The notes beneath the pieces are model-generated. The model was not told the origin of the DNA, did no database searches, and worked only from the letters and a program-made list of their open reading frames with translations. This document shows positions 33,010-35,556 of a stretch of 64,000 nucleotides of DNA, piece after piece (within the stretch, counting starts at the first letter, position 1; every line of letters begins with the position of its first letter). The DNA is from an uncultured Azospirillum sp. Its GTDB lineage: Bacteria; Pseudomonadota; Alphaproteobacteria; Rickettsiales; UBA3002. The stretch spans positions 210,864 through 274,863 of the forward strand of contig CAZGXX010000003.1 in the NCBI GenBank assembly GCA_964530085.1, written 5' to 3'. The translations under genes were made by a program, and so were the position numbers.

Positions 33010-33711
33010 TTACAGCGCTGCCGTCTGCACCGGAGCGGCACTCTGGCGGGCAGCGGCGATAGCATCCGCATGGCCAGTCGTTGCTTCCGCACCACCCTTC
33101 ATGCGGGATTGAAGCTGCTCGTATTCTTGCGGCGTGATCTGGTATTGCGGTGCAATTGCCGGAGCCGCCTGCGGAGCATCAAAGCTCATGGCATTGGCTT
33201 CTGCCTCTGCCTGCGTACGTGCAGCGGCGCGGCCACGAATCGCCGAGCCGATACCAACAACCGCCAGTGTGCCCAACGCAAATAGCGATATTCTCGGGTT
33301 ATTCGCCGCCACACGAAACGGTTTGCTCACTACGCGCTGAAAAAACCCTGCGCGCCCCTTCCCAGCCAATTCCGTGACTTTCTCGACTGTTTTAGCCGTG
33401 CCTTTGCCATAGAGGTTGAGGCCGACCACTTCACCCATTTTACCAATCGCGTTGCGGATACTGCCGAAAACCTCCCAACGCGCCGACTTCAGCTCGATAT
33501 GGGATTTGCTCAGGTCTTTTGCGGCGTCCTTGGCCGCTTGCGTCACTTCTTTATCAATCGTGCTATTGGTTAGTTTACGTGCGTCAATCTTTGCCACCGC
33601 ACTTTCAAACGTGCTGGCAGCATCCTTTGCGCCTATTTGCGCCTTTTCAAACTTGGTGGGTGGTGCATCGCCCCACCATGCCGGTTTCCACCATCCTTTT
33701 TGTAAAGCCAT
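33010..33711 (-). CDS. orphan single-pass membrane protein (233 aa)
   Basis: RBS AGGAGAG. The ATG is 14 nt after the upstream stop. GRAGFFQRVV motif, TM segment ISLFALGTLAVVGIGSAI, Ala/Gln-rich C-terminus. Confidence 0.7.
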   Translation of the reverse strand: MALQKGWWKPAWWGDAPPTKFEKAQIGAKDAASTFESAVAKIDARKLTNSTIDKEVTQAAKDAAKDLSKSHIELKSARWEVFGSIRNAIGKMGEVVGLNLYGKGTAKTVEKVTELAGKGRAGFFQRVVSKPFRVAANNPRISLFALGTLAVVGIGSAIRGRAAARTQAEAEANAMSFDAPQAAPAIAPQYQITPQEYEQLQSRMKGGAEATTGHADAIAAARQSAAPVQTAAL

Positions 33712-33725
33712 AACGCTCTCCTATC

Positions 33726-34286
33726 CTACCGCGCCAGCGCGAGTTGTCCGTTGATCGGGCCGTCATATTGCATATCGCGGCCTACTTGAATTTGTGAGTT
33801 TGCCGCATTCATTGGCGAACCTTGCGCTGCGTAGGGGCTGTATACAGGCGCTTGCGCCTTTGCGAGTTGCACCTGCGCTTCGAGCATCGCTGCTTGGCCA
33901 CGCTCCTGACTCACACGCTCCGAACCGCGCGCGGCACCCTTTGCACCGCCCAGAATAGCACCAAATGGCACCGTGATCCAACCCGCTGCGACACCGAGCC
34001 CACCACCGATAGCTGTACCAAGAGCCGTCCAGCCGAGTACCGAAAGAATCTTTCCTGTAATGGCAGGAAGCACTGTACTACCTACAGCTTCAGGCAGCAC
34101 AAGTAGTCCTGTGCCGAATGAAGCCCAAATCAAAGCAACGGCACCACCGAGAATCGCAAGGTTGCGTATACCTTTCAGGAACCCTCTTACACCACCACCA
34201 ACAACACCACTCGCCGTGCTCGATGCGGTTGTCGCAATCGCACTTCCTGCGGAGTGGTTAATCGGTGCTACGTTATCGTTACTCAT
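33726..34286 (-). CDS. orphan glycine-zipper multi-pass membrane protein (186 aa)
   Basis: RBS GGACGGGAGA. VRGFLKGIRNLAILGGAVALIW..., LGWTALGTAIGGGLGVAAGWITVPFGAILGGAKGAA, polar C-terminal tail. No signal peptide. Confidence 0.75.
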   Translation of the reverse strand: MSNDNVAPINHSAGSAIATTASSTASGVVGGGVRGFLKGIRNLAILGGAVALIWASFGTGLLVLPEAVGSTVLPAITGKILSVLGWTALGTAIGGGLGVAAGWITVPFGAILGGAKGAARGSERVSQERGQAAMLEAQVQLAKAQAPVYSPYAAQGSPMNAANSQIQVGRDMQYDGPINGQLALAR

Positions 34287-34322
34287 GGGATTCTCCCGTC
34301 CTTAAACTATTATCTAGTATGC

Positions 34323-34366
34323 ATAGTAACACAGGGATTCGGCTCTGTGTGTGAAGGTTTTGTGAC
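34323..34366 (-). promoter_or_regulatory. module-A promoter: TTGTCACAAAACCTTCACACACAG, 22 nt after the box, TACTAT
   Basis: On the minus strand the half-sites are at 34366-34362 and 34355-34351. The extended -10 TGTTACTAT has its hexamer at 34328-34323. It sits directly after the stop of 34371-34955. Confidence 0.7.
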
Positions 34367-34370
34367 AATT

Positions 34371-34955
34371 CTAGGCATTTTTACCACTAACCTCTTGATT
34401 GTTCGTTGCCGCAGGGGGGATGTTGGGCTGCTTATTACTAAATGCATCCGCATTTCCCACAAAACCGATGTCGTTTTTCTTGACCGCACTCATGGCCACC
34501 ATACCGATGGCCGCCGCGACAGCCCCGCCGCCTATAATCCCGCCCACTTTGCTCATGAAGCTGTTGTCTTCGCCGGAGACAGTCTCAGAAACGCCGCCGA
34601 TCGTGCCTTTTACTCCACCAATCACACCATTGACTACCAGCGCCGCCATACCCGCTTGTTTCACCAGCTCCATCGTACCGCCCTGATCCAGCTTCTCGCC
34701 CAGTGTTTCACCCACTTTCTTACCATTGACCTTAAATGGCAGCCATTTGACCAGCTCCGGTGCAAAAAATGCGGTCCCCATGAAGCCGGCAGCCGTCATC
34801 AGCAAGCCCGAGAGATTGCCAACTGTGTTACTCCAGACACCATGTCCCATTCCGCCGAGGACATTGGGTATTCCCATGAACAGGCGGTTAAAAAACCCGG
34901 AGCCGCCTTGTTTCACGGCATCGGTCACTTTTTGTACGATTTCTCCATCGGCCAT
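34371..34955 (-). CDS. orphan glycine-rich membrane protein (194 aa)
   Basis: TAGttATG junction with the upstream gene, with RBS GGGAGAGGG inside it. GGSGFFNRLFMGIPNVLGGMGHG and VNGVIGGVKGTIGG...GGIIGGGAVAAAIGMVAMSAV. Confidence 0.75.
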   Translation of the reverse strand: MADGEIVQKVTDAVKQGGSGFFNRLFMGIPNVLGGMGHGVWSNTVGNLSGLLMTAAGFMGTAFFAPELVKWLPFKVNGKKVGETLGEKLDQGGTMELVKQAGMAALVVNGVIGGVKGTIGGVSETVSGEDNSFMSKVGGIIGGGAVAAAIGMVAMSAVKKNDIGFVGNADAFSNKQPNIPPAATNNQEVSGKNA

Positions 34956-34957
34956 AA

Positions 34958-35497
34958 CTAGTACCCTCTCCCGTGGCTACCGTTGCGCGAGTCATGCACC
35001 ATATCCTGATAATAGGTGCTCTCCTCTTTGAGTTCGCGTTCCTGCTTCTGCAACTGGTCGAAATTATAATTCTCTCGTGCTTTATGAGCGCGGTGTGCAT
35101 CGCGGTAATCCACACTGGGCGCGGGACGACTCGCTGCGCGCGACTTGGCGATTAAATCTTCGGAATATTTATCACGACGACGCTCTGTTCCCACGCCTTT
35201 GATGCCGCCGGTCAGAAGCCCAACAGATCCGCCAGCAATCGCGCCCGCCACCAGACCACCGACCCAGCCCATAATAAGTGCCCCAAGCCCCATGGGCGTG
35301 GTAATCGCGATTAACGCACCAATCCCAGTACCAATCCATGCGCCTTTGCGACCCCAGTTGCCCATGCCGTTAAAGGTGGAATCAAACGTACCACCGATAA
35401 AACCCTTCACGTAGCGGAACGGGCGCAGCGGGTCGAAGCGCCGTGCTGCGTCGGCCACTGCTGCTACTGGTTTTGCTACTGTATCGCTCAACGCCAT
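34958..35497 (-). CDS. orphan glycine-zipper membrane protein (179 aa)
   Basis: RBS GAGGAA. VKGFIGGTFDS..., GAWIGTGIGALIAITTPMGLGALIMGWVGGLVAGAIAGGSVGLLTGGIKG, and a charged C-terminal tail. Confidence 0.78.
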   Translation of the reverse strand: MALSDTVAKPVAAVADAARRFDPLRPFRYVKGFIGGTFDSTFNGMGNWGRKGAWIGTGIGALIAITTPMGLGALIMGWVGGLVAGAIAGGSVGLLTGGIKGVGTERRRDKYSEDLIAKSRAASRPAPSVDYRDAHRAHKARENYNFDQLQKQERELKEESTYYQDMVHDSRNGSHGRGY

Positions 35498-35512
35498 AAT
35501 TCCTCAGCTTGA

Positions 35513-35556
35513 ACTATAGCACCCTTCGCCTAAGAGTTTTGTGAAGTTTTTGTGAC
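35513..35556 (-). promoter_or_regulatory. module-A promoter: TTGTCACAAAAACTTCACAAA, 22 nt after the box, TATAGT
   Basis: On the minus strand the half-sites are at 35556-35552 and 35545-35541. The -10 TGCTATAGT has its hexamer at 35518-35513. Confidence 0.7.

What the first reader, a model, noticed from the sequence alone, without database searches (positions are those of the whole stretch)
33010..35556. Two back-to-back operons of four glycine-zipper membrane proteins driven by near-identical promoter modules
The locus contains two operons.
- Operon 1 is 34958-35497 followed by 34371-34955, joined by a TAGttATG junction.
- Operon 2 is 33726-34286 followed by 33010-33711, with a 14-nt gap and its own RBS.

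Each operon starts with AATTGTCACAAAA(A/C)CTTCACA, followed 22 nt after the box by a TG-extended -10. The locus ends in a strong terminator at 32955-32992.

The four products and the dispersed paralog-like 24991-25506 share an architecture but little sequence. Each has a hydrophilic N-terminus without a signal peptide and a G(F/A)(F/L/I)x(G/R) motif: VKGFIGG, VRGFLKG, GSGFFNR, GRAGFFQR, IKGAVKG. Then come one or more Gly/Ala-rich GxxxG-type hydrophobic segments, for example GWVGGLVAGAIAGGSVGLLTGG and AIGGGLGVAAGWITVPFGAILGG. Each ends in a polar, Gln/Ala/Arg-rich C-terminal tail.

Glycine-zipper segments are the membrane-inserting or pore-forming unit of several toxins and surface antigens. 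Proteins with paired hydrophobic lobes and no signal peptide are also typical of secreted host-membrane-targeted effectors. The locus sits between rpsD and a tRNA methyltransferase gene, is more AT-rich than either, and has no mobility genes. It could be a novel membrane-active toxin or effector family, or a stress-induced envelope module.
Basis: partly seen in the sequence, partly recalled or inferred. Interest (0 to 1): 0.8.

Follow-up and report, generated by a model that had tools for sequence, protein, structure and literature searches.

The report
Response-regulator regulon of orphan membrane proteins
Four small, fast-evolving membrane-protein genes of unknown function sit behind two copies of a 21-base switch sequence that also controls dozens of other unannotated genes in an uncultured group of alphaproteobacteria, so the reusable result is a new regulon rather than a demonstrated toxin.

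Summary
The four ORFs, their junctions, the two near-identical promoter boxes and the terminator are real. The box cAATTGTCAyAAAAsCTTCACA is a direct repeat of TCACA with an 11-bp period, the OmpR/PhoB "Pho-box" type. It lies exactly 21 nt upstream of a TG-extended -10.

It is not private to this locus:
- Four strict copies and three or four variants occur in the window.
- It is present in 21 of 21 orthologous A and C promoters from related genomes.
- About 70 exact copies occur in roughly 28 related MAGs, against about 4 expected by chance.
- 68 of 72 downstream proteins have no Pfam domain.
- The same 20-mer precedes pstS-pstC in unrelated Rhodospirillaceae, so PhoB-type control is the leading guess. 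The regulator gene was not found.

A, B, C and D are four unrelated novel families, conserved in synteny (SpoU methylase, A-B-C-D, rpsD) and under purifying selection (dN/dS 0.17-0.30). Their synonymous divergence is 3-10 times that of the flanks. In C the hydrophobic core is hypervariable between invariant termini.

Only A, C and the dispersed E are glycine-zipper-rich; B and D are not. Toxin or effector function is untested. My best reading is starvation- or stress-induced membrane proteins; the effector reading remains open.

The parts
35540..35560 (-). Promoter-1 box AATTGTCACAAAAACTTCACA. It is a direct repeat of TCACA with an 11-bp period and is the presumed binding site of an OmpR/PhoB-family response-regulator dimer.
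   Evidence: Box variants occur at the same position in all 9 orthologous A promoters.
35513..35521 (-). TG-extended -10 of promoter 1 (TGC TATAGT), 21 nt after the box. The leader is short and GAGGA lies before the ATG at 35497.
   Evidence: The position-specific logo TGnTAnanT was built from 85 sites in which the -10 was not part of the search pattern.
34958..35497 (-). Gene A, 179 aa. One 47-aa bilobed Gly-zipper hydrophobic stretch (residues 53-99), basic residues on both sides, and a conserved charged C-terminal domain. Novel family.
   Evidence: Only 8 homologues exist among 5.8 billion proteins. dN/dS 0.17 against L002.
34371..34955 (-). Gene B, 194 aa. Gly-rich, with three weakly hydrophobic segments and a Pro/Thr-rich tail. 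Translationally coupled to A (TAGttATG). Novel family.
   Evidence: Conserved by position in 8 related genomes. dN/dS 0.30.
34350..34370 (-). Promoter-2 box AATTGTCACAAAACCTTCACA, directly after the stop codon of B.
   Evidence: Present in all 12 orthologous C promoters. The region 34397-34218 is 92-95% identical to L002, while the neighbouring coding DNA is 45-75% identical.
34323..34331 (-). TG-extended -10 of promoter 2 (TGT TACTAT), 21 nt after the box.
33726..34286 (-). Gene C, 186 aa. The N-terminal 25 residues (MSNDNVAPINH...) are invariant among the four closest relatives. The Gly/Ala-rich hydrophobic core is hypervariable (about 50-100 aa across the family). The C-terminal roughly 70 residues are conserved. 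Novel family.
   Evidence: The family has 116 representatives at 50% identity among 1.84 billion proteins, and no Pfam or PDB match.
33010..33711 (-). Gene D, 233 aa. Variable helical hydrophilic N-terminal half, a single hydrophobic segment (residues 138-160), and a Gln/Ala-rich tail ending ...AAR...L. It has its own AGGAG ribosome-binding site. Novel family.
   Evidence: It is the most divergent of the four: 32-43% amino-acid identity to L002, while rpsD next door is 99.5% identical.
32955..32992 (-). Intrinsic terminator closing the cluster.
   Evidence: dG -25.5 kcal/mol, z -3.8.
24940..25506 (+). Same regulon. Canonical Pho-box variant TGTCATAAAACTGTCACA (24940-24957), then 21 nt, then TATTCT (24979-24984), then gene E (24991-25506; 171 aa, two Gly-zipper hydrophobic stretches).
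   Evidence: E homologues in L005 and L074 also carry box variants.
43581..43601 (-). Same regulon. An exact box, then 21 nt, then TATAAC, upstream of the orphan ORF 42740-43537 (soluble, internally duplicated).
   Evidence: In L002 the promoter, leader and first codons are conserved, but the coding sequence behind them is unrelated.
43977..43997 (-). Same regulon. Box GATTGTCACAAAACCTTCACA, then 21 nt, then TAGGGT, upstream of the 72-aa orphan ORF 43695-43913, which has its own terminator.
13595..13640 (.). Possible members. A divergent pair of canonical Pho-box-like sites: TGTCATCAAACTGTCACA on the minus strand and TGTCATAAAACTGTCATA on the plus strand. They lie between the low-GC orphan 12238-13506 (minus strand) and the BepA-like M48/TPR protease 13671-15080 with the DsbA-like 15113-15934 (plus strand). 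No clear -10 is present at 21 nt.

Best explanation
Genes A-D form a syntenically conserved, rapidly diversifying cluster of four unrelated novel small membrane proteins. They are expressed from two activator-dependent promoters.

Promoter architecture. Neither promoter has a -35 element. Each has a 21-bp box, cAATTGTCAyAAAAsCTTCACA, made of two TCACA half-sites 11 bp apart. The box spans about -51 to -34, exactly 21 nt upstream of a TG-extended -10. This is the architecture of an OmpR/PhoB-family response-regulator dimer recruiting sigma-70 RNA polymerase.

Regulon. The same module heads dozens of other lineage-specific orphan genes across an uncultured alphaproteobacterial clade. The locus is therefore one output of a two-component regulon.

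Regulator and signal (inferred). The regulator is most likely PhoB or a PhoB-like paralogue, so the inducing signal would be phosphate limitation.

Protein fate (inferred). The proteins have no signal peptide. Basic residues flank their hydrophobic stretches on both sides. I infer they insert as N-in/C-in hairpins (A, C, E) or as a single-span anchor (D) into the bacterium's own cytoplasmic membrane, with their polar tails in the cytoplasm, as part of a starvation or envelope response.

Status of each step:
- Shown: the genes are real and under purifying selection; the promoter module is real; the regulon is real; the locus is hypervariable.
- Inferred: the identity of the regulator, the signal, the topology and the target membrane.
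For: Anatomy of the locus.

The box is real:
- Chance expectation in the window is 0.00-0.14 matches, against 5-6 observed.
- In ortholog-defined promoters, chosen by gene homology and not by motif, 21 of 21 (9 A, 12 C) carry the box with exactly 21 nt to a TAnnnT hexamer. This holds although the proteins have diverged to 30-40% identity.
- A scan of GTDB representative genomes for ATTGTCACAAAANCTTCACA returned 85 listed loci (L006-L090 were fetched). My estimate of the chance number is about 4, assuming uniform base composition.
- About 70 of these lie in some 28 related MAGs. Thirteen MAGs have 2-17 copies each.
- A logo of 85 sites shows TGnTAnanT at a fixed offset, although the -10 was not part of the search pattern.
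- IMG/VR viral contigs contain no copy.

Pho-box type:
- The same 20-mer lies upstream of pstS-pstC in a Rhodospirillaceae MAG. Close variants lie upstream of pstS in its relatives.
- The sequence resembles 18-mers bound by E. coli PhoB in ChIP experiments (PMC10294691).
- Gene E and the bepA/dsbA intergenic region carry canonical TGTCAT-N5-TGTCAy versions.

The regulon consists of orphans: 4 of 72 downstream proteins have any Pfam hit. By contrast, a background sample of 146 ORFs from the same loci hit 193 families.

The genes are real and conserved:
- The order SpoU methylase, A-B-C-D, rpsD recurs in about 10 genomes.
- dN/dS is 0.17-0.30 for A-C.
- Family C has 116 full-length representatives.

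Membrane character:
- Hydropathy and Gly-zipper statistics.
- AlphaFold models are all-helical, though of low confidence.

Hypervariability:
- The flanks are 90-97% identical to L002 at the DNA level, with dS 0.13-0.42.
- A-C are 45-75% identical, with dS 1.0-1.5; D is the most divergent and its dS is saturated.
Against: - No OmpR-family regulator gene was found in the window or in about 680 kb of fetched clade DNA. PhoB could not be confirmed as present in these genomes.
- No pst genes were found in that DNA. Whether this clade's own Pho genes carry the box is therefore unknown.
- The second half-site is CTTCAC in 21 of 21 A and C promoters, not the canonical CTGTCA.
- The spacer to the -10 is 21 nt. 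From my own recall of E. coli and Pseudomonas Pho promoters it is about 10-12 nt there. Alphaproteobacterial pstS promoters do appear to have 20-21 nt after their last half-site, but I assigned those -10 elements by eye.
- The CenR motif of Rhodobacter (TGA-N8-TGA; listed sites such as TCACGCAATCCTGAC) is also compatible (PMC9275681).
- A Pho regulon made almost entirely of orphan proteins would be unusual.
- There are no expression data.
- Topology and target membrane are inferred from the sequence alone.
- Orphan status, fast evolution, cassette-like replacement and the lack of signal peptides fit exported effectors equally well.
Confidence: 0.55

Rival explanations
1. The box-controlled genes, including A-D, are a repertoire of exported effectors. 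In this reading A and C would be membrane-inserting effectors resembling chlamydial Inc proteins. They would be delivered into a eukaryotic host or a bacterial prey. The response regulator would act as a master virulence or predation switch, as PmrA does for Icm/Dot effectors in Legionella and Coxiella. Phosphate limitation could still be the cue.
For: - 68 of 72 box-downstream proteins lack any Pfam domain.
- Only 4% of them have a signal-peptide-like N-terminus.
- Long bilobed hydrophobic stretches are enriched: 31% against 8% of background ORFs.
- Divergence is very fast and the coalescence is deeper than in the flanks.
- In one case a coding sequence has been swapped behind a conserved promoter.
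- Several box genes lie in low-GC stretches.
- An ankyrin-repeat protein is encoded near the locus in L001.
- The MAGs are labelled Rickettsiales and come from protist-rich habitats.
- The hydrophobic segments are Gly/Ala-rich and so only moderately hydrophobic. From my own recall of the literature, this is typical of secreted proteins with transmembrane segments.
- Precedent: PmrA and CpxR boxes were used to find Legionella effectors (PMC2701608).
Against: - No secretion-system gene was seen in the window or the fetched loci. Only an SLT transglycosylase and one pseudopilin-like ORF were found.
- The window encodes fairly full metabolism (purL, ilvA, nadE, gap, ETF, PBP1A). It does not look like a reduced obligate symbiont.
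- None of the box proteins has a eukaryote-like domain.
- The hydrophobic-stretch enrichment is carried by three families (A, C and the 340-aa family). The counts are therefore not independent.
- The invariant N- and C-termini of family C argue for a fixed partner, not a degenerate secretion signal.
Confidence: 0.25
2. The box is bound by a different OmpR-family regulator, not PhoB. One candidate is the alphaproteobacterial envelope regulator CenR. Another is a clade-specific paralogue. The cluster would then be an envelope-homeostasis or envelope-stress output.
For: - CenR sites are direct repeats with an 11-bp period. They are co-directional with transcription and lie just upstream of the -35 position. 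Examples such as TCACGCAATCCTGAC and TGGCAAAAATGTCAC resemble TCAC-N7-TCAC in the box (PMC9275681).
- The CenR regulon includes dsbC, surA and envelope proteins. In the window, a BepA-like/DsbA-like operon carries box variants.
- The second half-site is always CTTCAC. This suggests a specificity shifted away from canonical PhoB.
Against: - The published CenR motif carries little information. Any TCA-N8-TCA repeat fits it.
- The exact 20-mer sits in front of pstS-pstC in other alphaproteobacteria. That is a PhoB target by strong inference.
- The published ChvI motifs (TTGC-N3-GCAA; GCC-N8-GCC) do not match (PMC9731502).
Confidence: 0.15
3. The box is the -35 element of an alternative (ECF-type) sigma factor, not an activator site.
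For: - The sequence is highly conserved and of high information content.
- It lies at a fixed distance from a downstream element in many promoters.
Against: - The distance from TTCACA to the downstream hexamer is 21 nt. From textbook knowledge, -35/-10 pairs are spaced 16-18 nt.
- The downstream element is a sigma-70-type TG-extended TAnnnT, not an ECF-type -10.
- The box is a tandem repeat with one helical turn between its half-sites. That is the signature of a winged-helix response-regulator dimer.
Confidence: 0.04

Closest known systems
PhoR-PhoB Pho regulon and its Pho box (E. coli, Sinorhizobium and other proteobacteria)
   Same: - The site has two roughly 7-bp half-sites (TGTCAy-type) separated by an A-rich 4-5 bp spacer, with an 11-bp period, in place of a -35 element.
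- An identical 20-mer lies upstream of pstS-pstC in Rhodospirillaceae MAGs.
- The sequence resembles 18-mers bound by E. coli PhoB (PMC10294691).
   Different: - The second half-site is fixed as CTTCAC.
- The box is nearly invariant over 20 bp in dozens of promoters.
- The spacer to the -10 is 21 nt, about one helical turn more than in gammaproteobacterial Pho promoters (my recall).
- The controlled genes are almost all orphans, not phosphate-acquisition genes.
- Neither phoB nor Pho genes from the same genome could be examined.
PmrA- and CpxR-controlled Icm/Dot effector regulons of Legionella pneumophila and Coxiella burnetii
   Same: - One OmpR-family-type tandem-repeat box lies at a fixed distance from the -10.
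- It heads many unrelated, lineage-specific, fast-evolving genes, some in hypervariable regions.
- The motif can be used to enumerate the set (PMC2701608).
   Different: - The box sequence is unrelated. From my own recall, the PmrA consensus is cTTAATatT-N2-cTTAATatT.
- The organisms are gammaproteobacteria with a demonstrated type IVB secretion system.
- No secretion system or translocation has been shown here.
Chlamydial inclusion-membrane (Inc) proteins
   Same: - There are many families with no sequence similarity that share one architecture.
- That architecture is a hydrophilic N-terminus without a Sec signal, a 40-60-aa bilobed hydrophobic hairpin, and a polar tail.
- A fits this (a 47-aa stretch), as does C.
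   Different: - There is no homology.
- No type III secretion system is known here.
- The hydrophobic core of C ranges from about 50 to 100 aa.
- The termini of family C are strongly conserved, unlike those of Inc proteins.
- B and D do not fit the architecture.
Glycine-zipper membrane families (Pfam Gly-zipper_YMGG, Gly-zipper_Omp, Rick_17kDa_Anti, DUF1269; VacA-type GxxxG channels)
   Same: (G/A/S)xxxGxxx(G/A/S) repeats are enriched within the hydrophobic segments of A, C and E.
   Different: - No HMM match at E <= 1.
- One of 60 members of family C touches DUF1269, at E = 0.007.
- There is no lipoprotein or Sec signal.
- B and D are not enriched for the motif.
CenK-CenR envelope regulon of Rhodobacter and Caulobacter
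   Same: - The site is a direct repeat with one helical turn between half-sites.
- It is co-directional with transcription and lies upstream of the -35 position.
- The targets are envelope proteins, including Dsb-type proteins (PMC9275681).
   Different: - The published motif (TGA-N8-TGA) is far less specific.
- Its targets are conserved, annotated envelope genes with signal peptides, not orphans.

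Membership tests
Pho regulon (PhoB-dependent promoter) | Pho box: two direct repeats of about 7 bp with a 4-bp A/T-rich spacer (11-bp period); consensus CTGTCAT-N4-CTGTCAy | tested here: met
   - TTGTCAC-AAAA-sCTTCAC in 21 of 21 A and C promoters.
- The first half-site is canonical. The second differs at one core base (T for G).
- Fully canonical versions occur at gene E and in the bepA intergenic region.
Pho regulon (PhoB-dependent promoter) | The box replaces the -35 element at a strict distance from the -10 (about 10 bp in E. 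coli, from my own recall) | tested here: inconclusive
   - There is no -35 element and the spacing is strictly fixed, but it is 21 nt.
- Alphaproteobacterial pstS promoters fetched here show about 20-21 nt after their last half-site. I assigned their -10 elements by eye.
Pho regulon (PhoB-dependent promoter) | The same box lies upstream of pstSCAB-phoU or phoB in the same genome, and phoB/phoR are present | not testable with these tools
   - No pstS or pstC in 683 kb of clade DNA.
- No OmpR-family regulator in the fetched loci.
- The exact box does precede pstS-pstC in an unrelated Rhodospirillaceae MAG.
Pho regulon (PhoB-dependent promoter) | Induction by phosphate limitation | not testable with these tools
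   No expression data are available.
Pfam glycine-zipper families (Gly-zipper_YMGG, Gly-zipper_Omp, Rick_17kDa_Anti, DUF1269) | A match to the family HMM at or above the curated cut-off | tested here: not met
   - No hit at E <= 1 for A-E.
- No NCBIfam hit.
- Of 60 family-C members, one weak DUF1269 hit at E = 0.0068.
Glycine-zipper membrane proteins (structural motif, not a family) | (G/A/S)xxxGxxx(G/A/S) repeats within hydrophobic helices, beyond what composition predicts | tested here: met
   Met for A (p~0.001), C (p~0.035) and E (p<0.001). Not met for B (p = 0.32) or D (p = 0.61).
Inc-like translocated membrane effectors | Bilobed hydrophobic domain of about 40-60 aa, no Sec signal | tested here: met
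   - A: residues 53-99. C: residues 36-115, which is longer.
- B and D do not have such a domain.
Inc-like translocated membrane effectors | A dedicated secretion system in the genome, and translocation into a host | not testable with these tools
   - No secretion-system genes in the window.
PmrA-type effector regulon | The PmrA box cTTAATatT-N2-cTTAATatT (my recall) | tested here: not met
   The box sequence is unrelated. Only the regulatory logic is similar.
CenR regulon | TGA-N8-TGA direct repeat, co-directional with transcription, just upstream of the -35 position | tested here: inconclusive
   - The box contains TCAC-N7-TCAC, like several listed CenR sites.
- The published motif is too degenerate to discriminate.
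One paralogous family comprising A, B, C, D and E | Detectable sequence or profile similarity between the members | tested here: not met
   - BLASTP: all pairs E > 0.4.
- hhalign: best result is A versus C, 64-93% probability over only 9-20 columns at the end of the last helix. All other pairs are 55% or lower, on 5-65 columns.

The most novel reading that the evidence does not exclude
An uncultured, deep-branching alphaproteobacterial clade (rpsD no more than 73% identical to those of the named alphaproteobacteria returned by the search) uses a PhoB-derived master regulator and a nearly invariant 21-bp box as a plug-in expression platform for a hypervariable arsenal of exported proteins. That arsenal would include Inc-like hairpin proteins that insert into host or prey membranes. 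New coding cassettes would be swapped in behind conserved promoter, leader and first-codon modules by recombination. This would be a virulence or predation regulon analogous to PmrA with Icm/Dot effectors, but arisen independently, and it could be read directly from the motif.
Probability: 0.2. Interest if true: 0.8.

Novelty: new variant of a known kind. Interest (0 to 1): 0.55.

Why it matters
The box is a ready-made handle. A 20-bp motif with a fixed -10 offset enumerates a whole co-regulated set of dark-matter genes in a lineage that has no cultured member. It also makes their inducing signal testable, for example with phosphate limitation, Lake Mendota metatranscriptomes or DAP-seq with PhoB.

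The locus itself shows an unusual pattern. Hypervariable membrane-protein genes, with conserved termini and promoters, sit between nearly identical housekeeping genes. Such patterns usually mark proteins at an interface with hosts, prey, phages or competitors.

If the set proves to be exported, it would be a new effector regulon in the Alphaproteobacteria. If not, it defines several new families of starvation- or stress-induced membrane proteins.

Tried and rejected
- Family searches. Pfam and NCBIfam scans of A-E and neighbouring genes found nothing. A profile of family C against PDB sequences gave one weak hit, a 'co-purified transmembrane protein' at E = 0.018.
- Structure. AlphaFold2 on A (8 sequences; pLDDT 59) and C (4 sequences; pLDDT 44) was too poor for a meaningful fold search, so none was run.
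- Common origin. BLASTP and hhalign gave no support for a common origin of A-E or the 340-aa family.
- Source contig. An exact-sequence look-up of protein A found no record.
- First genome scan. A scan with single protein A found nothing, because such scans reach close relatives only. The scan with the alignment worked.
- Regulator gene.
- Clade Pho genes. tblastn with PstS and PstC found none in 683 kb of clade DNA.
- pstS loci. A scan with the WMHbin7 PstS showed that this MAG is a Rhodospirillaceae, not a member of the clade.
- Naming the clade. Named alphaproteobacteria came back only at 73% identity or lower. My guess that the clade belongs to the Micavibrionales could not be tested and is not claimed.
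- Literature. A search for the box sequence found nothing specific.
- Rejected readings of the box:
  - The ChvI motif does not match.
  - An ECF sigma -35 element is rejected on spacing.
  - From my own recall, the alphaproteobacterial LexA box (GTTC-N7-GTTC) and CtrA box (TTAA-N7-TTAA) do not match.
  - A phage or mobile-element origin is unlikely: there is no copy in IMG/VR and no mobility genes are present.
- Spurious ORFs. The antisense ORFs overlapping B and C (for example 34254-34961, plus strand) are spurious, because the minus-strand frames are conserved with dN/dS below 1.

Full report
**1. What is at the locus.**
The minus strand between 35560 and 32955 carries four ORFs:

| Gene | Coordinates | Length |
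|---|---|---|
| A | 34958-35497 | 179 aa |
| B | 34371-34955 | 194 aa |
| C | 33726-34286 | 186 aa |
| D | 33010-33711 | 233 aa |

- A and B are joined by TAGttATG. C and D are separated by 14 nt that contain AGGAG.
- Two 21-nt boxes lie at 35540-35560 (AATTGTCACAAAAACTTCACA) and 34350-34370 (AATTGTCACAAAACCTTCACA).
- Each box is followed after exactly 21 nt by a TG-extended -10: TGC-TATAGT and TGT-TACTAT.
- The hairpin at 32955-32992 folds at -25.5 kcal/mol (z = -3.8) and is followed by a T-run.
- The stop codon of B touches the second box and no terminator lies between them. The cluster may therefore be one transcription unit with an internal promoter.
- The flanks are rpsD (32112-32735) and a SpoU-family methyltransferase (36976-37689). 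The Pfam assignment comes from homologues that are 68-88% identical.
- A 424-aa orphan ORF (35659-36933, plus strand) lies between A and the methyltransferase. It is missing at this site in relatives.

**2. The box marks a regulon, not a local duplication.**
- At up to 3 mismatches the 21-mer has 5 matches in the window against 0.00 expected. The 18-mer core has 6 against 0.14 expected.
- Exact copies lie at 43581-43601 and 43977-43997, upstream of two further orphan ORFs.
- A canonical Pho-box version, TGTCATAAAACTGTCACA, lies 21 nt upstream of a TATTCT hexamer before gene E (24991-25506).
- Two more canonical versions face each other at 13595-13640. They lie between a low-GC orphan and a BepA-like M48/TPR protease with a DsbA-like gene.
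- A scan of one genome per GTDB species for ATTGTCACAAAANCTTCACA listed 85 loci. I estimate about 4 by chance for 596 Gb on both strands at uniform composition.
- About 70 of the hits lie in some 28 MAGs labelled Rickettsiales, Alphaproteobacteria, 'Azospirillum' or Pseudomonadota. Thirteen MAGs have 2-17 hits each.
- A logo of 85 sites shows the box positions, which are invariant by construction of the search. It also shows TGnTAnanT at a fixed offset and a purine-rich ribosome-binding region soon after. Neither of these was part of the search pattern.
- For a test free of that ascertainment bias, I took promoters of A orthologues (9 genomes) and C orthologues (12 genomes), chosen by protein homology. 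All 21 carry the box, and all 21 have exactly 21 nt to a TAnnnT hexamer. The consensus is cAATTGTCAyAAAAsCTTCACA.
- IMG/VR viral contigs contain no copy.

**3. What kind of site it is.**
- The box is a tandem repeat of TCACA, one helical turn apart. It occupies about -51 to -34 of a promoter that has an extended -10 and no -35 element.
- This is how winged-helix response regulators of the OmpR/PhoB family work (established knowledge; PMC4415409).
- The sequence is of Pho-box type. It resembles the 18-mers bound by E. coli PhoB in ChIP experiments (PMC10294691).
- The identical 20-mer lies upstream of pstS-pstC in the Rhodospirillaceae MAG WMHbin7. Close variants lie upstream of pstS in its relatives.
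- In those alphaproteobacterial pstS promoters, the last half-site appears to lie about 20-21 nt from a TAGGGT/TAGGAT-type -10. That would match the spacing here. I assigned those -10 elements by eye.
- Other regulators were compared:
  - ChvI motifs do not match (PMC9731502).
  - The low-information CenR motif does fit (PMC9275681).
  - An ECF-sigma -35 element is unlikely, because of the 21-nt spacing and the sigma-70-type -10.
- The regulator gene itself was not found. The fetched loci contain only NtrC- and NtrX-type receiver proteins. No pst genes are present in the 683 kb of clade DNA available.
- PhoB identity is therefore an inference, which I put at about 50-55%.

**4. What the regulon encodes.**
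- Of 72 non-redundant proteins downstream of strict boxes, only 4 have any Pfam hit at E <= 0.001: a PstS from the unrelated MAG, a DUF1465 protein, a PG_binding_1 protein and a curlin-repeat protein.
- A background sample of 146 ORFs from the same loci hits 193 Pfam families.
- Signal-peptide-like N-termini are rare: 4% against 8% in background ORFs.
- Long continuous hydrophobic stretches of at least 36 aa are enriched: 31% against 8%, Fisher p = 8e-7.
- That enrichment is carried by three multi-member families (A, C and a 340-aa family), so the counts are not independent. About half of the set consists of soluble orphans.

**5. The four proteins.**
- *Relatedness.* They are not detectably related to each other or to E. 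All BLASTP pairs have E > 0.4. The best hhalign result is A versus C, at 64-93% probability over 9-20 columns at the 'GG.KG..R' end of the last helix.
- *Family sizes.*
  - A has only 8 relatives among 5.8 billion proteins.
  - C has 116 full-length representatives at 50% identity among 1.84 billion.
  - D has 2 close relatives.
  - B and D are recognisable across the clade mainly by position and architecture.
- *Known families.* None matches Pfam, NCBIfam or PDB sequences.
- *Hydropathy.*
  - A has one 47-aa bilobed stretch.
  - C has an 80-aa stretch.
  - E has two stretches.
  - B has three weak ones.
  - D has a single 23-aa segment.
- *Glycine zippers.* The motif is significantly enriched only in A, C and E.
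- *Inferred topology.* Basic residues flank the hydrophobic stretches on both sides, for example ...GRKG|AWIG...TGGI|KGVGTERRRDKY in A. I infer N-in/C-in hairpins.
- *Structure models.* The AlphaFold2 models are all-helical but of low confidence (pLDDT 59 and 44), so no fold search was attempted.

**6. Evolutionary behaviour.**
The gene order SpoU, A-B-C-D, rpsD recurs in about ten genomes of the clade. Comparison with the closest relative, L002:

| Region | DNA identity | dS | dN/dS |
|---|---|---|---|
| Flanking genes (rpsD, o185, SpoU) | 90-97% | 0.13-0.42 | 0.02-0.21 |
| A, B, C | 45-75% | 1.0-1.5 | 0.17-0.30 |
| D | below about 65% | saturated | not computable |

- The rpsD protein is 99.5% identical to its L002 counterpart.
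- The genes are therefore real and constrained, but their divergence is much deeper than that of the flanks. This points to allele replacement by recombination, or to locally accelerated change, and not simply to relaxed selection.
- Within the island, the second promoter and the start of C (34397-34218) are 92-95% identical to L002.
- Among C's closest relatives, the first 25 residues and the last 70 or so are nearly invariant. The hydrophobic core is unalignable and varies in length.
- At 43400-44060, the window and L002 are about 93% identical through two box promoters, the 72-aa ORF, its terminator, the leader and the first 3-4 codons. After that the coding sequences are unrelated: a 265-aa protein against a 209-aa protein, BLASTP E = 0.3. 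A conserved promoter module with exchangeable cargo is a recurring theme.

**7. Organism.**
- The window is chromosomal DNA at 57-58% GC, with ordinary housekeeping genes: rne, PBP1A, amiC, purL, ilvA, cysS, gltX, nadE, etfAB, gap, ligA, recN and 6S RNA. Low-GC orphan ORFs are interspersed among them.
- Its rpsD is 82-99.5% identical within the MAG clade.
- The lifestyle (free-living, host-associated or predatory) could not be established. One relative encodes an ankyrin-repeat protein near the locus.

**8. Interpretation.**
*Best supported (about 0.55).* The cluster is one output of a two-component regulon with a Pho-box-type operator. The regulator is probably PhoB, and the signal would then be phosphate limitation. 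The products are small membrane proteins that insert into the producer's own membrane.

*Main rival (about 0.25).* The regulon is an exported effector repertoire under a master regulator, analogous to the PmrA/CpxR effector regulons of Legionella and Coxiella (PMC2701608). In that reading A and C would be hairpin proteins resembling chlamydial Inc proteins.
- In favour: the orphan content, the missing signal peptides, the cassette exchange and the hypervariability.
- Against: no secretion-system genes were seen, no box protein has a eukaryote-like domain, the metabolism looks full, and the termini of family C are conserved.

The two readings can overlap, because phosphate limitation is a common host cue. 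Two smaller rivals remain: a CenR-like or clade-specific regulator (about 0.15), and an ECF sigma promoter (about 0.04).

**9. Verdict.**
- 'Four glycine-zipper proteins' holds for two of the four.
- 'Toxin or effector' is unproven.
- The reusable result is the regulon signature: box, 21 nt, extended -10.
- The kind of system is known (a response-regulator regulon of Pho-box type). The content and behaviour are new: several new protein families, an almost wholly orphan regulon, and hypervariable cargo behind conserved promoters.
- I classify it as a new variant of a known kind, of moderate to high interest.

Noticed in passing
window 35659-36933 (+): A 424-aa orphan ORF is inserted between the SpoU methyltransferase and gene A, and is transcribed divergently from A. 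It is absent at this site in all relatives examined. Pfam, NCBIfam and PDB sequence searches give no hit. It contains ...ILQCHG... and ...LGSCYGG... about 40 residues apart. These resemble a His/Cys catalytic dyad of caspase-fold (clan CD) peptidases, but this is unverified.
   Followed up: partly
window 42740-43601 (-) versus L002 4900-5640: This looks like a cassette swap. The box promoter, the leader, the ribosome-binding site and the first 3-4 codons are about 93% identical between the two genomes. The coding sequence behind them is unrelated (a 265-aa internally duplicated soluble protein against a 209-aa protein).
   Followed up: yes
window 13595-13640, with 12238-13506 (-) and 13671-15934 (+): Two canonical Pho-box-like sites face each other in the intergenic region between a low-GC 422-aa orphan and a BepA-like M48/TPR protease with a DsbA/ScsC-like gene. 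No good -10 is present at the usual 21-nt offset, so membership of the regulon is uncertain.
   Followed up: partly
window 52041-52202 (-): A 6S RNA (ssrS) gene was found with Rfam RF00013 (49.7 bits). It is the only Rfam hit in the window at gathering threshold.
   Followed up: no
L008, L054, L089, L038, L080, L049 (box sites listed): In a sub-class of box sites, TTCACA is followed by a TTAAC..GTTAA palindrome that resembles a CtrA box. After that come a run of 6-14 G and then TAAA. This may be a second regulatory input or a small repeated element.
   Followed up: no
L016, L075, L037, L072, L036: In several box promoters the ATG lies only 6-7 nt after the -10 hexamer. This implies leaderless mRNAs for part of the regulon.
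   Followed up: no
C-terminal tails of family C (around residue 159 of window C) and family D (alignments): Families C and D, otherwise unrelated, share a short motif in their Gln/Ala-rich tails: (S/P)(Y/P)MNxA(S/G)(S/T). It could be a common recognition motif or a composition artefact.
   Followed up: no
window 12238-13506, 19082-19588, 55916-57202, 59335-59754: Further ORFs without any Pfam hit lie in stretches of 47-49% GC, within a window that is otherwise 57-62% GC. Apart from 12238-13506, none has a strict box.
   Followed up: partly
window 9122-9142 (+): A weak box-like sequence, AATTTACACAAAAACATCACA (3 mismatches), lies about 190 nt upstream of the RNase E gene (9333-12128). Its significance is unknown.
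   Followed up: no
window 31423-31980 (-) and relatives: A conserved 170-185-aa protein of unknown function lies next to rpsD throughout the clade and is duplicated in L010. It has a charged helical region and a KGKGQG-type tail. It is 90% identical between the window and L002, so unlike A-D it is slowly evolving.
   Followed up: no
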